The position numbers are program-made. From contig NC_042997.1 in the NCBI RefSeq assembly GCF_006345805.1, forward strand, positions 93,434,001 to 93,498,000: a stretch of DNA of 64,000 nucleotides, written 5' to 3'. This DNA comes from Octopus sinensis. Its lineage: Eukaryota. Positions 269 through 55,723 of this stretch are shown here, in pieces (the first letter of the stretch is position 1; every line of letters begins with the position of its first letter).

Positions 269-1707
269 CATAAAGTTGGTGAGCTGGTAGAACTGCTAGC
301 ATGTCAGGCAAAATGCTTAGTGGTATTTTGCCCATCTCTATGTTTTGAGTTCAAATTCTGCCAGGGTCAACTTTGCCTTTCATCCTTTTGGAGTCAATAA
401 ATTAAGTACCAGTTATGTACTGGGGAATTGTAATCGACTTACCCCCTCCCCCACAATTTCAGGCCTTGTGCTTTAGTAGAAAGGATTATTATTATTATTA
501 TAAGAGCATTGGGTGACAAGGAAGAATAATTTCAACACTAATAAATAATTACACTAAACTTCTGTCAGAGAGAGAAAGAGACAAACAGCTAAACAGGCAG
601 ACAGACAGACAGATATATGCTCATGCATACTCAAATATAAATACATATACACATATAATGTGTTAAAAACATGTGAATTTGCTTCTTTTTAGAGCTGGAT
701 TAAATTACCTGAGACTTATGCAACAAATCGATATTTCCAAACTGCCAACACATTTGCGAGACATGGTTCTAAGAGAGAGGGTAAAAGATTATGTTATGTT
801 TAATCTCCTTGACTTCATCACCCAGAATATACAGGCATTAGGTAAGACTTCACAGCTACCTACTTTTTCATGTCAAACTTTGTATACAATAATATAATTT
901 CTTTTGACTAGACAAAACACTAATATTTTACTTTATGATGGACTTCTTGTATGAATAGCTGTTTGATACCTTTTAAGGTGGTACATTTAAAGAACATTAA
1001 AGAACCCTGTATTGTGGTACATTTAAAGAACATTTGCTAGAATATTTGTGCTTAAATATAACATGACAAAAAGAAAGCAAAATGTTGAAATTAACATAAT
1101 TAACTTAGAATTAAGAAGAGATAAAAATAAATGCTGTCAGTCATATGGCAATTTTACCATTTTGCCAATTCAACCCATCTCAAAGGCTTTACAATTATTT
1201 TCTTACTGAGATAAACAAGCTAAAATATGCTAAACATTTAGTCTAGCACCTTCATTTTCTCTTCAATATATTGTTGATGTTTCACTAACACACAGGCCAC
1301 AAATTTACAGAGGAATAGAATAAGACTATGTGACATACATTGTTGCATCAAGAAAGTTAATAACATGAGTGATATGAGTTAATGTCAAGTTTACAGTAGT
1401 AAACAAGGAGTTTAGATGCTCTATGACAAGTAAATTCTTGATACAAACCTTAAAAACAGTTGTTATTGTTGTATCAAATTATATTAAAAGTCACAATTAG
1501 AAAAGAAATTTGTATTTCTGAATTATTTTTTACAATAGGTGCAGGAGTGACTGTGTGGTAAGTAGCTTGCTTACGAACCACATGGTTCTGGGTTCAATCC
1601 AACTGCATGGCACCTTGGGCAAGTGTCTTCTACTATAGCCTCGGGCTGACCAAAGTCTTGTAAGTGGATTTGGTAGATGGAAACTGAAAGAGGCCCGTTG
1701 TATATAT

Positions 1708-1759
<52 letters not shown>

Positions 1760-52900: not shown

Positions 52901-55723
52901 CAAGAAAGGATTTCAAATTCTATTCCCTCTTGATTACATTTTCTGAATTCTATTATTTTAATTTCAAGATGTTCTATCTTTTGAAGAAATTCTTCAGTAA
53001 CATTGAAAATAATGCTTAATATTTGTAGCTGTATTCCGAAACTTCTTGAAATCACCGGATGTTGTACGAGACTATTTGATGAATAACTTAAACTTACCAC
53101 ATGAAATCTCAGATGCACTGATTAATTCCACAGTTTCTCTGGCTCAGGTTAGTTATTCTTCAGACTACCATTATTGGGCATGACTTTCAGCTGTTGGCTA
53201 TTTGCTTTTCCTTTCAGAAATTCTCCAATATTAGATATTGGTTTCAAATTTTGGTACAAGGCCAGCAGGTTCAGGGACAGGGATAAGTTGATTATATCAG
53301 CTCCAGTGCTCAACAACTACTTATTTTATCAACCCCAAAACGATGAAAGGCAAAATCAGCCTCAGCAGAATTTGATCTCAGAATGTATTTAATCTTTAAA
53401 TATGGATAACTTTTTTTACTGAAGTGTTTTAATTTTTTTCAAACTACTTTTGCTCTTTTAATGAATTTGTAAGAATTTTAAAGTAACTAAATTTCATTGG
53501 ACATGAAAAAAGTAGTCGAATTTTACTTTCATTTTTAATTCTAAGTTAAGATTGAATGAAAAATGTTGGATTGAAACAAGCTGAAAAAATAAGTATATAT
53601 ATATATTCTTCATAAGATCTTAGTTTACACATGTAATTGTGCATTCTCTTTCAGTTCATTAATTTCCGAAGCAACTCTGTCAAAGAACTAATGTGCAAGA
53701 ACATCAGCCGCATTATAACTTTGTCAAATAACACCAATGTTACATACCAGGAAATTAGTAATCATTTATGTCATCTGAACACTAAAACTATCTACAACCT
53801 AACACAACTCATCATGGAACAATTAAATATTGGTGAATTTGTTAAACAGGTATGGCCAAAAGCATTTCTGATTTTGAGAAACATTTTATTTAACTACAAT
53901 AAATGCAAACAGCAAATTATATAAAATTTTGTAGAAATTCAGTTATACTTCTAATGTCTTCATTAATGAGATAAATTGCATACTATGAACATGGAAACTA
54001 AATATATTGAACATTATATAGTAAGCTTAAACATGGTTTATAAATTAAATGACATAAATATATGAATATATGAAATGTATGCAAATACTAAAAAATAAAT
54101 AACAATGAGATTTAAAACGAACAGGTGAAGCTCATTTTTTTACATTTGTTTTTAATCTAATCAATATACTGAGATAACAATCAAATCTTATGCTCTAAAA
54201 ATGTTGAAGTACTAAAGAGTAACAACCAGTTTTCATATGGTAGGCTGCTGATCTCACTTTTTCAGTGTTCTCCCTGTTGTTATGCCAGGTTACATGCCAC
54301 TGCCTTGATGTAGTGCTGGTATTTCTGACAAAAATATAACATGATGAATGATATTATAAAGCATTTATAACAAATTTTACTGACTAGATTGCAAGTAAGC
54401 AAATTAAAACCTTAATTACCATTTCATCAATTTTGCCAAGCATATGGTATATACCTAGCCAACAGAATACATGCAAAATATGTGTGAATGTGTGTGTGGT
54501 GTGTGAGTGAATTTTCTTTAATCTTGAAATTTAAAACAGACCAAATCTATCAGAATGAAATGACATGTCATCAAAAATATTATATTTTAATAATATAGAA
54601 GGGGTAATGTTCTTTTTCAGTATGTCTTACTACGTGCTTCAACTTTGCTGAAATCAACCAACATAACAGTACCAATTGCAAAAGAAACATTTTCACAAAT
54701 GTCCAGGACCAGTGCACTTGTAAGAGGAGTCAGAACAGCATTCAACGATAATGAAATATATAAAGTATTCTCTAACTTTGACTCATCTGAAGGCGGTATG
54801 TTTATGTTATTTCCTGGGGGATGGGAATTTTTTAATGCTTAAAAATAAAATGGTTTCATACATCATCATAAGGTCTCAGAATGTAGGAGTAGATGTATTA
54901 TTGATTGAATAAACCCAGTACAAGATTGCTACATATCTCACTTGGGAGGAATGGAAACCAATATCAGCTAAGCAGTTTTTACTTAGGATACAACTAAATA
55001 TGAAATAGAAAAAATTTTAGTGTATTCTGTCACCAAAACAAGCATAGCTAGTTATGATCCAATCCCCCATACTGTAAACAATGCTTCTTCTGTAAGTAGT
55101 AGCAGAAGCAAGTACTCTGAAAGTTTTTTATATCTGTTTTGAGATTTTTTAAGTTCAACTCCTGATAATTTTTTTTTTATTTATCTAGTTTCAGCTCACA
55201 AGCTGTGGCCATGCTGGGGCAAGGCATTAATTTTTTTTCTATTTTTTTAGGGTCCGTAAAATAACTAGCTAGCATAAAAATAACTAGATCCAGTTTACAG
55301 TTTGTAGCATACTGGGTCAATTGAGTTGCTTGTACATCCTTCTTCAAATACGTATTTAAAATGCTCTTCATAAACCCAAACTTTCTTAAAATAACTATCA
55401 TTGTGATCTCATCTCGCTCTTTCTTAAAGATCTGAGCAAGCTTAAAGAGCTTGTACCTCTTATGTGTGGTCGAAATGCTTCTCTTATGTTGGATGCCGAG
55501 GGTGGCCTCAGCATTTTCAGCTCAGCAAATGAAATCAAAGGAAAAGACGGACTCAGTAAATCACAACGGCGTGAATACAACTCTCTACCAAGTAAGTAAC
55601 ACTAGCTAATAATATCAGGTAATGTAAAACACTATTTAAATACAAAGAAAAATACCACAGCCAAGAATGAATTTCAGAATTGTGTGTGCATTTATATATG
55701 CATGTGCGTGCATGCGTGTGTGT

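What the first reader, a model, noticed from the sequence alone, without database searches (positions are those of the whole stretch)
693..53849. Giant ABCA extracellular domain built by serial duplication of an exon cassette
Seen: exons 1-32 follow a strict intron-phase rhythm 0-2, 2-1, 1-0, with or without a 0-0 exon, about 9 times: [1-3 partial], [4-7], [8-11], [12-14], [15-18], [19-21], [22-24], [25-28], [29-32]. At least 1900 aa of ECD1 are encoded with TM1 still upstream. Known: ABCA1 ECD1 is roughly 600 aa and forms a helical lipid tunnel; vertebrate ABCA13 has a huge ECD1 but, as I recall, largely from very long exons. Inference: this is an independent expansion in which the helical tunnel/lid segment was tandemly multiplied, possibly giving a very long extracellular lipid conduit or rod. 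The phase periodicity survives although DNA similarity between units has gone.
Basis: partly seen in the sequence, partly recalled or inferred. Interest (0 to 1): 0.8.

Follow-up and report, generated by a model that had tools for sequence, protein, structure and literature searches.

The report
Giant ABCA gene, repeated lid cassettes
This window holds part of a giant lipid-transporter (ABCA) gene, probably molluscan, whose outer domain was enlarged by copying a block of three or four small exons about nine times, a build it shares with snails, clams and a sea star.

Summary
Intron phases run (0-0), 0-2, 2-1, 1-0 nine times; 0 of 1,000,000 shuffles reach that.

The 3' exons are colinear with a 2135-aa full ABCA transporter, P0003. 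The cassettes are real repeats, but the window alone does not show it: leave-one-out profiles failed. Profiles built only from other species' giant ABCA proteins hit the window's exons in register. They also tile the first extracellular domain (ECD1) of Lymnaea, Aplysia, Sinanodonta, Mactra and Patiria with 10-18 units of about 215 aa. Reversed sequences gave 1 hit in all.

The D+A half of the unit aligns to ABCA4 residues 151-255, inside the unresolved apical lid of ECD1. So the lid was multiplied, not the tunnel.

The "independent expansion" is not supported, because the array is shared across molluscs and an echinoderm. [quoted passage not shown] The fold model was poor (pLDDT 52).

The parts
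693..841 (+). exon 1, class C (phase 2-1), first partial cassette
Evidence: Exon chaining (coding 11.6, donor 9.0). AG..GT and phase check.
2883..3022 (+). exon 2, class D (1-0)
   Evidence: V1 profile hit 2885-3004 at profile positions 48-84, E 1e-2.
5306..5521 (+). exon 3, class A (0-0), two Cys 29 residues apart
   Evidence: U3 hit at positions 16-61, E 2.5e-2. V1 hit at 97-143, E 8.5e-2.
5750..5964 (+). exon 4, class B (0-2)
   Evidence: coding 23.9, acceptor 9.4. Weak U3 hit at positions 91-141, E 0.29.
6829..6986 (+). exon 5, class C (2-1)
8268..8404 (+). exon 6, class D (1-0)
9755..9964 (+). exon 7, class A (0-0), two Cys 28 residues apart
   Evidence: V1 hit at positions 90-156, E 0.33. 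Rank 1 in the leave-one-out test, E 0.04.
11272..11471 (+). exon 8, class B (0-2)
   Evidence: coding 23.6. U3 hit 11272-11469 at positions 78-141, E 1.9e-3.
13528..13670 (+). exon 9, class C (2-1); acceptor uncertain (13528, 13531 or 13567)
   Evidence: Candidate list. U3 hit 13526-13651 at positions 143-182, E 5.6e-2. Replaces 12641-12711.
15282..15409 (+). exon 10, class D (1-0)
   Evidence: V1 hit 15290-15394 at positions 51-85, E 1.5e-3.
16396..16590 (+). exon 11, class A (0-0), two Cys 26 residues apart
   Evidence: U3 E 7.7e-5. V1 E 5.4e-6.
18975..19171 (+). exon 12, class B (0-2)
   Evidence: coding 25.3. Weak U3 hit, E 4.9e-2.
19681..19811 (+). exon 13, class C (2-1), poorly supported
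   Evidence: Best 2-1 candidate in its intron, but coding score is -2.7. No profile hit.
21325..21422 (+). exon 14, class D (1-0)
23861..24042 (+). exon 15, class B (0-2); this cassette has no A exon before it
25403..25464 (+). exon 16, class C (2-1), only 62 nt, poorly supported
   Evidence: Best 2-1 candidate in its intron. No profile hit.
27525..27628 (+). exon 17, class D (1-0)
   Evidence: acceptor 8.1.
29534..29737 (+). exon 18, class A (0-0), two Cys 32 residues apart
   Evidence: V1 hit in register at positions 95-133, but E 1.2.
29934..30094 (+). exon 19, class B (0-2)
   Evidence: coding 17.4.
31145..31230 (+). exon 20, class C (2-1)
   Evidence: clear best candidate, total 15.1.
32449..32573 (+). 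exon 21, class D (1-0)
34488..34609 (+). exon 22, class B (0-2), no A exon before it
35537..35667 (+). exon 23, class C (2-1)
   Evidence: Weak V1 hit at positions 3-42, E 0.84.
36863..36957 (+). exon 24, class D (1-0)
38752..38936 (+). exon 25, class B (0-2), low coding score
   Evidence: coding 1.2, acceptor 10.1. No profile hit.
40487..40614 (+). exon 26, class C (2-1)
   Evidence: total 23.3.
45191..45315 (+). exon 27, class D (1-0)
   Evidence: V1 hit 45187-45327 at positions 48-93, E 6e-3.
46592..46786 (+). exon 28, class A (0-0), two Cys 26 residues apart
   Evidence: U3 E 1.2e-7. V1 E 3.8e-7.
48278..48483 (+). exon 29, class B (0-2); P0003 starts inside it
   Evidence: tblastn of P0003 residues 1-54 onto 48323-48484, 63% identity, E 1e-14.
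51933..52066 (+). exon 30, class C (2-1)
   Evidence: tblastn of P0003 residues 55-99 onto 51934-52068, E 2e-8. Candidate list. Replaces 50828-50934 and 51989-52066.
53029..53147 (+). exon 31, class D (1-0), lid module part 1
   Evidence: tblastn of P0003 residues 99-138, 65% identity. V1 E 3.5e-3.
   Evidence: tblastn of P0003 residues 136-203, 57% identity, E 1e-18. U3 and V1 both E 5.1e-9.
54621..54795 (+). exon 33 (0-1), non-repeated ECD1
   Evidence: tblastn of P0003 residues 198-260, E 1e-8.
55430..55591 (+). exon 34 (1-1), non-repeated ECD1
   Evidence: tblastn of P0003 residues 271-319, E 2e-10.
56634..56773 (+). exon 35 (1-0), conserved ECD1 core motif
   Evidence: tblastn of P0003 residues 319-370, 60% identity, E 1e-15. 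Also P0006 (Physella) residues 2297-2358, 42% identity, E 1e-10.
57930..58046 (+). exon 36 (0-0)
   Evidence: tblastn of P0003 residues 365-408, E 2e-3.
59935..60184 (+). exon 37 (0-1), ECD1 core
   Evidence: donor 11.6. P0001 88% identity. P0003 43% identity, E 5e-17.
63761..63908 (+). exon 38 (1-2), ECD1 core; the gene runs on past the window
   Evidence: tblastn of P0003 residues 485-535, 51% identity, E 9e-11.

Best explanation
The window lies inside one gene for a giant ABCA-type lipid transporter, probably molluscan. It covers the last nine or so repeat units of the first extracellular (or luminal) domain, ECD1, plus the start of the conserved ECD1 core. TM1 lies upstream of the window, and the rest of the transporter lies downstream.

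Each repeat unit is a cassette of small exons:
- B (phase 0-2), C (2-1) and D (1-0) are always present.
- A (0-0) is optional. It carries two cysteines 25-32 residues apart.
- A unit is about 140-150 aa without A and about 210 aa with it.

The D+A half of the unit is homologous to the apical lid of the ECD1 of ordinary ABCA transporters. Those carry it once. Here, and in the giant ABCA proteins of gastropods, bivalves and a sea star, it is present many times in tandem.

Inferred: the array grew by tandem duplication of an exon block that begins and ends in phase 0, for example by unequal crossing-over in introns. That keeps the reading frame. Because the A exon is itself 0-0, it can be lost or skipped without a frameshift. 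Most of the array predates this lineage.

Inferred, with low confidence: the product is a long, mostly helical, glycosylated stack of lid-like modules on top of the ECD. The module is stapled by a disulfide wherever an A exon is present. The stack would lengthen or multiply the lipid-facing or partner-binding apex of the transporter. For comparison, the long N-terminal region of mouse ABCA13 is required for vesicular localisation and cholesterol internalisation.
For: Gene and phases (shown):
- 38 phase-consistent AG..GT exons.
- Nine 2,1,0 phase runs; 0 of 1e6 shuffles reach that.

ABCA identity (shown through a homologue):
- P0003 (2135 aa) is colinear with ten window pieces from 48323 to 63909 at 31-65% identity.
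- P0003 carries 2x ABC_tran, 2x ABC2_membrane_3 and R1_ABCA1.
- Its best solved relatives are ABCA1, ABCA4, ABCA7 and ABCA3.

Cassette is a real repeat (shown in relatives):
- The A-exon profile gives 75 hits on 14 proteins and 0 on their reversed sequences. Spacings are quantised at about 200-232 aa, about 355 aa and about 430-450 aa.
- The whole-unit profile at E<=1e-3 finds 18 units in Lymnaea, 18 in Aplysia, 16 in Patiria, 14 in Sinanodonta, 10 in Mactra and 9 in Physella. Reversed sequences give 1 hit in all.
- Plain BLASTP of Lymnaea 1441-1870 against 1870-2298 gives 55.7% identity over 431 aa, E 3.5e-167.

Window exons belong to that repeat, in register (shown):
- Profiles built from non-window proteins only hit + strand ORFs 12 times against 2 on the - strand (U3), and 15 times against 3 (V1).
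- All six A exons fall at V1 positions 90-156; three have E 5e-9 to 5e-6.
- 4 of 9 D exons fall at positions 48-93 with E 1.5e-3 to 1e-2.
- B exon 11272 starts at U3 position 78, and A exon 53849 ends at position 77.
- Each of the 6 A exons has exactly two Cys; the other 26 cassette exons hold 4 Cys together.
- There are 40 N-x-S/T sequons in 1608 codons.

Lid mapping:
- Profile A1 positions 190-295 align to ABCA4 151-255, domain E 1.3e-9.
- ABCA4 138-271 is the unresolved apical lid (passages read).

Function analogy:
- Passages of PMC7948424.
Against: - From the window alone the cassettes are not significantly alike. Leave-one-out profiles recovered 2 of 6 A exons (E 0.04 and 0.15), 1 of 8 B, 0 of 9 C and 3 of 9 D (E 0.9-5.4).
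- With outside profiles, B exons reach E<=1e-2 in only 1 of 8 cases, and C exons in none (best 0.056).
- Three C exons and one B exon rest mainly on phase fit.
- No transcript supports any junction upstream of 48278. P0003 itself starts at a methionine inside exon 29, so a shorter product cannot be excluded.
- The window holds no TMD or NBD, so ABCA membership rests on colinearity with P0003.
- The AlphaFold2 model of two cassettes plus core was poor: mean pLDDT 52, pTM 0.35, and the B-C part about 33. Nothing is shown about a rod or a conduit.
- The Foldseek matches to ABCA4, ABCA1 and ABCA7 have TM-scores of only 0.20-0.27.
- No giant cephalopod-like protein was found to check the upstream cassettes.
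Confidence: 0.8

Rival explanations
1. One reading: a private, independent expansion in this lineage, unrelated to other giant ABCA proteins, in which tunnel helices were multiplied.
For: - No DNA similarity is left and no close full-length orthologue was found.
- The spacing of A exons in the window (about 242, 229, 352, 454 and 218 aa, computed from the exon lengths) is not identical to the gastropod pattern (213, 449, 431, 354, 218).
- Lineage-specific duplications do happen, as in Lymnaea.
- Vertebrate ABCA13 shows no detectable array.
Against: - The same unit, the same period and the same optional A module tile ECD1 in gastropods, bivalves and a sea star.
- Profiles made from those species alone recognise the window's exons in register.
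- The last spacing, about 218 aa before the core, is shared.
- The module maps to the lid, not the tunnel.
Confidence: 0.12
2. The upstream cassette exons belong to a separate gene, or are usually not part of the ABCA transcript. A short isoform would start near 48323, as in the P0003 model and as debated for human ABCA13.
For: - P0003 begins at a methionine inside exon 29.
- PMC7948424 (passages) reports that a short ABCA13 form lacking the N-terminal region has been described.
- No transcript data were available here.
Against: - The exon chain is phase-compatible and stop-free across 693-63908.
- In all full-length relatives the array sits directly between TM1 and the core in one protein; for example, Lymnaea P0022 has TM1 at its N-terminus and 18 units.
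- P0003 starting in the middle of a cassette looks like a truncated model.
- No other gene, Pfam domain or RNA family was found in the interval.
Confidence: 0.07
3. The phase rhythm is an artefact of model building. Chaining forces phase compatibility, so spurious exons would fill the gaps.
For: My chaining did insert false exons (12641-12711, 50828-50934, 51989-52066, 27199-27348). A homologue or a profile corrected these or left them unsupported.
Against: - Chaining requires compatibility, not this particular cycle.
- The well-scoring A, B and D exons alone already give the cycle.
- Outside profiles place each class at its own cassette coordinates.
- 0 of 1e6 shuffles reach nine 2,1,0 runs.
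Confidence: 0.02

Closest known systems
Vertebrate ABCA13 (about 5000 aa; long N-terminal region between TM1 and the ECD1 core)
   Same: - Full ABCA transporter with an ECD1 of thousands of residues.
- Vertebrate ABCA13 proteins are hit by the cassette-plus-core region of P0003 (E 2e-17 to 1e-9) and of Physella P0006 (E 9e-25 and 2e-22).
- The first module (about residues 165-285) and the last module before the core (about 2860-3099 of the shark protein) match the cassette profile, with hhalign probabilities 40% and 56%.
   Different: - The roughly 2500 residues between those two modules show no detectable cassette similarity. The best probability was 11.8%, against 3.7% for the reversed control.
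- They show no internal repeat either: 0 of 141 window pairs reached probability 20% (141 of 210 pairs were examined).
- Part of the human domain is encoded by a 4.8-kb exon. I saw this only as the title of Prades et al. 2002 in a reference list. Here the exons are 62-250 nt.
- Orthology was not resolved by my small tree.
Predicted giant ABCA proteins of other invertebrates: Lymnaea stagnalis 6670 aa, Aplysia californica 6642 aa, Sinanodonta woodiana 5321 aa, Mactra antiquata 4801 aa, Physella acuta 4110 aa (partial), Patiria miniata 6166 aa
   Same: - Same cassette, same period of about 215 aa, and the same optional two-Cys module.
- Same position of the array, between a first module at about residue 175 and the core.
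- P0003 groups with the molluscs in the tree, SH-aLRT 98.
   Different: - They are database predictions named 'uncharacterized', 'ABCA1 partial' or 'ABCA12'.
- Their exon structure could not be examined here.
- They have 10-18 detectable units, against 9 in this window, which is incomplete at its 5' side.
ECD1 lid of ABCA1 and ABCA4 (solved structures 5xjy, 7tby, 7lkp and others)
   Same: - The D+A module aligns to ABCA4 151-255, including both cysteines.
- The ECD1 core aligns to ABCA4 367-648 and ABCA1 119-633.
   Different: - Ordinary ABCA transporters have one such module.
- In ABCA4 it is unresolved by cryo-EM, so no solved structure of the module was available for comparison.

Membership tests
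ABCA subfamily of ABC transporters | Full transporter: two ABC2_membrane_3 TMDs, two ABC_tran NBDs and an R1 regulatory domain | tested here: inconclusive
   The window ends inside ECD1, so it holds none of these. 0 of 75 and 0 of 45 window ORFs or exons hit such Pfam families. The colinear homologue P0003 has all of them.
ABCA subfamily of ABC transporters | Large ECD1 with the conserved core that aligns to ABCA1, ABCA4 and ABCA7 | tested here: met
   Window exons 33-38 align to P0003 198-535. The profile holding P0003 aligns to ABCA4 367-648 (E 3e-67), ABCA1 119-633 and ABCA7 253-543. The 21 Foldseek matches with E<=1e-3 are all ABCA4, ABCA1 or ABCA7, though the model was poor.
Giant ABCA12/ABCA13-like class | ECD1 of thousands of residues between TM1 and the core | tested here: met
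   About 1625 aa of cassettes plus about 330 aa of core are encoded in the window, and the 5' end is still open.
Giant ABCA12/ABCA13-like class | Orthology to vertebrate ABCA13 or ABCA12 rather than ABCA1-like genes | tested here: inconclusive
   This was a quick tree of 18 proteins. P0003 sits in a mollusc clade (support 98). The relation of that clade to the ABCA13-like and ABCA1 clades is an open fork, the Microplitis branch is long, and the careful search did not finish. The spider-mite paper PMC3724490 (passages) places arthropod relatives as sister to human ABCA12 and ABCA13.
Giant ABCA12/ABCA13-like class | Very long exon encoding much of the N-terminal region (human ABCA13) | tested here: not met
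   All exons here are 62-250 nt. The 4.8-kb exon is known to me only from a paper title.
ECD1 lid-cassette repeat (no Pfam family; defined here) | Match, in register, to profiles built from cassettes of other species | tested here: met
   - A exons: 3 of 6 at E<=8e-5, and all 6 in register.
- D exons: 4 of 9 at E<=1e-2.
- B exons: 1 of 8 at 2e-3.
- C exons: 0 of 9 below 0.05.
- The - strand gave 2 and 3 weak hits, all with E>=0.2.
ECD1 lid-cassette repeat (no Pfam family; defined here) | Two cysteines about 25-32 residues apart in the A module | tested here: met
   6 of 6 A exons. The same pair is seen in the alignment with relatives and in ABCA4.
ECD1 lid-cassette repeat (no Pfam family; defined here) | Units share one fold | tested here: inconclusive
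   In the AlphaFold2 model the two D+A modules show the same helix/bridge pattern with pLDDT 55-75. The whole model is poor (mean 52), and coordinates could not be superposed.

The most novel reading that the evidence does not exclude
The unexplained N-terminal region of more than 3000 aa in vertebrate ABCA13 is a degenerate array of the same lid cassette. Its authors say it has no homology to known proteins or domains. On this reading, all giant ABCA transporters are 'lid-multiplied' machines whose stacked lid modules form a long luminal or extracellular lipid-handling stalk. The invertebrate genes, with their intact exon cassettes, would preserve the ancestral state.

My evidence leaves this open. 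The first and last modules of the vertebrate region match the cassette profile. The middle does not, and it shows no internal repeat at the sensitivity I had.
Probability: 0.3. Interest if true: 0.75.

Novelty: new variant of a known kind. Interest (0 to 1): 0.55.

Why it matters
ABCA13 is described as the largest ABC protein. Its long N-terminal region is functionally required in mouse, yet its authors state that it has no homology to known proteins or domains (PMC7948424, passages).

If the giant ECD1 of invertebrate relatives is a tandem array of the ECD1 lid module, three things follow:
- It offers a domain definition. Pfam has none there.
- It gives a testable hypothesis for what the giant region is made of.
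- It is a clean example of frame-preserving exon-block duplication.

The lid is also the part of ABCA4 that cryo-EM cannot resolve, and it carries many variants of uncertain significance. A family of many diverged natural copies of that module could help model it.

In five literature searches I found no paper describing this repeat. Those searches cover open-access papers and bioRxiv only, and supplements were closed.

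Tried and rejected
- Pfam on 75 + strand ORFs of 50275-64000: nothing real. There was one sub-threshold Hormone_6 match at 17.5 bits against a cut-off of 25.
- All-against-all BLASTP of ORFs: the top hits on both strands are intronic interspersed repeats, not exons.
- Leave-one-out profiles from window exons alone: not significant.
- Exon 37 against 147-2000-aa proteins: only an unspliced ORF of a close relative, P0001.
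- Exon 37 against the representative library: 5 hits. One of them, P0004, is a bacterial repeat protein (E 1.3e-8, 5 stretches), which I take for a chance or compositional match.
- The listing of cluster members for P0003, P0002 and P0005: the database was switched off, so the source names of these proteins stayed unknown.
- First whole-unit profile from four Physella units: too weak; the reversed controls scored alike.
- ESM Atlas on the A exon 53655-53849: best score 0.78, no lead. The Atlas call on a part of P0006 failed on a size rule.
- Rfam and tRNA scans of the window: 0 and 0.
- Pfam on 28 long non-exon ORFs and 17 exons: 0 of 45.
- Self-BLASTP of whole giants returned no off-diagonal hits through a fault of my script. 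It was redone with 430-aa pieces.
- hhalign of vertebrate ABCA13 against the cassette profile and against itself: no array shown.
- The tree did not resolve the subfamily.
- The second structure job, the complex job and the genome-contig scan (bacteria and archaea only) were not used.
Every search with window sequence was exon by exon, so no repeat finder or AlphaFold run on the whole product was done.

Full report
**What is there**

The window has no N and is AT-rich (GC 0.30-0.40 per 2 kb). 29% of it is microsatellite or interspersed repeat that matches other places in the window, all of it outside the exons.

I built an exon chain of my own. It used codon log-odds trained on the window, generic splice-site scores and phase compatibility. 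I then corrected two exons:
- The C exon of the last cassette, from the colinear homologue P0003.
- The C exon of the third cassette, from a profile hit.

The result is 38 + strand exons from 693 to 63908. All are flanked by AG..GT and all are phase-consistent.

**The observation**

The exons fall into four classes by phase:

| Class | Phase | Number | Mean size (nt) |
|---|---|---|---|
| A | 0-0 | 6 | 202 |
| B | 0-2 | 8 | 184 |
| C | 2-1 | 9 | 125 |
| D | 1-0 | 9 | 119 |

The phase string holds nine 2,1,0 runs. None of 1,000,000 shuffles reaches nine; the most seen was seven. Exons 1-32 encode about 1625 aa and the whole window about 1956 aa. There is no DNA similarity between units.

Weak points:
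- C exons 19681-19811 and 25403-25464 and B exon 38752-38936 have poor coding scores.
- The acceptor of 13528-13670 is uncertain.
- My chaining also proposed false exons (12641-12711, 50828-50934, 51989-52066) and an unsupported 1-1 exon (27199-27348).

**Which gene**

Searching exon by exon, exon 37 (59935-60183) found two relevant proteins:
- An unspliced ORF of a close relative, P0001, at 88% identity.
- P0003, 2135 aa, from the representative library.

P0003 is colinear with ten pieces of the window from 48323 to 63909, at 31-65% identity. It is a complete ABCA transporter, with two ABC_tran domains, two ABC2_membrane_3 domains and R1_ABCA1. Its best solved relatives are ABCA1, ABCA4, ABCA7 and ABCA3.

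The window itself holds no TMD or NBD, so ABCA identity rests on this colinearity and on the conserved ECD1 core exons.

The first 520 residues of P0003 match giant proteins: Physella acuta 4110 aa (E 8e-56), a wasp protein of 4121 aa, and vertebrate ABCA13. A second search from Physella found more:
- Lymnaea, 6670 aa
- Aplysia, 6642 aa
- Bulinus, 5259 aa
- Sinanodonta, 5321 aa
- Mactra, 4801 aa
- Patiria, 6166 aa
- fish proteins named abca12

No giant cephalopod-like protein turned up in the length ranges searched. Those ranges were 147-2000 aa, 3738-5000 aa and 2260-7193 aa, plus the representative library.

**Are the cassettes homologous?**

From the window alone the answer is no by statistics. 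Leave-one-out profiles recovered 2 of 6 A exons, 1 of 8 B, 0 of 9 C and 3 of 9 D, all at E>=0.04. By eye the A exons share a two-cysteine motif. Each of the six has exactly two Cys, 25-32 residues apart, while the other 26 cassette exons hold four Cys in all.

The outside evidence is strong:

- *A-exon profile.* Seeded with the window's A exons and iterated on five relatives, it finds 75 copies on 14 proteins and none on their reversed sequences.
  - Copy numbers are 14 in Lymnaea, 14 in Aplysia, 10 in Sinanodonta, 10 in Patiria, 8 in Physella and 6 in Mactra.
  - Spacings are quantised at about 200-232, 355 and 430-450 residues.
  - That is a unit of about 215 aa whose A module is sometimes missing, which matches the window's pattern 'with or without a 0-0 exon'.
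- *Whole-unit profile.* At E<=1e-3 it tiles ECD1 with 18, 18, 16, 14, 10 and 9 units in Lymnaea, Aplysia, Patiria, Sinanodonta, Mactra and Physella. Reversed sequences gave one hit in all.
- *Plain BLASTP in Lymnaea.* A two-cassette block (1441-1870) is 55.7% identical to the next block (1870-2298), E 3.5e-167, and 29% identical to the one after. Tandem duplication is therefore directly visible and partly recent.

**Do the window's exons belong to that unit, in register?**

The profiles used here were built only from non-window proteins: U3 from 89 units and V1 from 65 C-D-A segments. They were run over all ORFs of 30 aa or more, 601 on the + strand and 578 on the - strand.

| Profile | + strand hits | - strand hits |
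|---|---|---|
| U3 | 12 | 2 |
| V1 | 15 | 3 |

- All six A exons fall at V1 positions 90-156. The E-values are 5e-9, 4e-7, 5e-6, 0.085, 0.33 and 1.2.
- Four of nine D exons fall at positions 48-93 (E 1.5e-3 to 1e-2).
- B exons fall at U3 positions 78-141 (best E 1.9e-3).
- C exons fall at positions 143-182 (best E 0.056).
- A exon 53655-53849 ends at U3 position 77, and B exon 11272-11471 starts at position 78. Exon borders therefore sit at fixed cassette coordinates.

The B and C parts are supported only weakly.

**What the cassette corresponds to**

I aligned one stretch from each of eight relatives, covering the last two cassettes and the core (alignment A1). Searched as a profile against solved structures, it hit only ABCA4, ABCA1 and ABCA7, 11 distinct sequences in all.

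ABCA4 matched in two stretches:
- The core, at 367-648.
- The D+A module, at 151-255 (domain E 1.3e-9), with both cysteines aligned.

According to passages of bioRxiv 10.64898/2026.06.25.734683, ABCA4 residues about 138-271 are the apical lid of ECD1, unresolved in cryo-EM because it is flexible. So the multiplied module is the lid, or at least its D+A half.

Full-length relatives have a first module at about residue 175 and a last one about 215 residues before the core. The array therefore lies where ordinary ABCA proteins have a single lid.

**Structure**

AlphaFold2 on Physella 1888-2579 with the eight-row alignment gave a poor model: mean pLDDT 52 and pTM 0.35.
- The model is nearly all helical.
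- The two D+A modules show the same helix/bridge pattern, with pLDDT 55-75.
- The B-C part is about 33.

Foldseek found only ABCA4, ABCA1 and ABCA7 at E<=1e-3 (21 matches), with TM-scores of 0.20-0.27. Nothing can be said about a rod or a conduit. A repeat finder or a fold of the window's whole product would need joined exons, and that step was left out.

**How it most likely arose and works**

- Shown: the block B-C-D(-A) begins and ends in phase 0, and the A exon is itself 0-0.
- Inferred: unequal crossing-over in introns duplicates the block without breaking the frame, and A can be lost or skipped alone.
- Shown: the array is rich in N-x-S/T sequons (40 in 1608 codons). That fits a luminal or extracellular location, as does the paired cysteines.
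[quoted passage not shown] The array may act as an extended apex for lipid hand-off or partner binding. This last step is a guess.

**Independent expansion?**

It is not private to this genome, since the array is shared by gastropods, bivalves and a sea star.

For vertebrate ABCA13 I could show only the first and last modules, with hhalign probabilities 40% and 56%. The middle reached at most 11.8%, against 3.7% for the reversed control.

A quick tree puts P0003 among the molluscs (support 98) but leaves the relation to the ABCA13-like and ABCA1 clades open. In that tree the fish proteins named abca12 group with a goby protein that had turned up among the ABCA13 hits.

**Novelty**

Giant predicted proteins of this build are already in the databases, under uninformative names. 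Pfam has no family for the array.

Five literature searches found no description of the repeat. They cover open-access papers and bioRxiv only, and supplements were closed.

I rate the finding as a new variant of a known kind: a known transporter family and a known giant class, with a repeat architecture and a lid origin that appear to be undescribed.

Noticed in passing
window 22390-23415; also 26414-26509, 27348-27435 and 49851-70: About 1 kb of a compound microsatellite sits in an intron. It reads as long open frames of repeated C-M-Y-V on the + strand and gives a 268-aa ORF on the - strand. Shorter copies lie in other introns. These open frames are not genes.
   Followed up: partly
window 20011-20329 and 44037-44345: A pair of roughly 310-bp intronic elements on the same strand. 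Their ORFs are 61% identical over 87 aa, E 3e-23. This is an interspersed repeat, and no Pfam domain was found in 20055-20321 or 44080-44397.
   Followed up: partly
window 17344-18408, 20410-20962, 1534-1990, 10299-11138, 39505-39896, 43294-43979 and 58555-58983: Intronic repeat families with many copies inside the window; match depth reaches about 190. Their translations dominate ORF-against-ORF BLASTP on both strands. They were not classified, and no Pfam domain was found in the long ORFs tested.
   Followed up: no
window 59908-60429 (exon 37 and the intron after it): P0001, an unnamed 175-aa database ORF, matches exon 37 at 88% identity. By eye it stays similar beyond the donor site into the intron. 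It looks like an unspliced genomic ORF of a close relative.
   Followed up: no
window 48323 (inside exon 29): The homologue P0003 starts at a methionine in the middle of a B-type cassette exon. This is either a truncated gene model or a short isoform, like the one debated for ABCA13.
   Followed up: partly
window 38194-38286: A small + strand ORF between exon 24 (D) and exon 25 (B) gives weak D-like profile hits: U3 positions 178-209 at E 0.23, and V1 positions 46-65 at E 0.38. It may be a decayed or missed exon.
   Followed up: no
P0004 (hit of exon 37): A 709-aa protein made of repeats of about 90 aa, which looks bacterial to me, matched exon 37 with E 1.3e-8 in five stretches. I take it for a chance or compositional match. 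It warns that repeats inflate whole-sequence scores.
   Followed up: no
proteins P0029, P0033 and P0037 against P0015: Fish proteins of 4492-4581 aa that are named abca12 group tightly with a goby protein that turned up among the ABCA13 hits. The naming of giant fish ABCA genes looks inconsistent.
   Followed up: no
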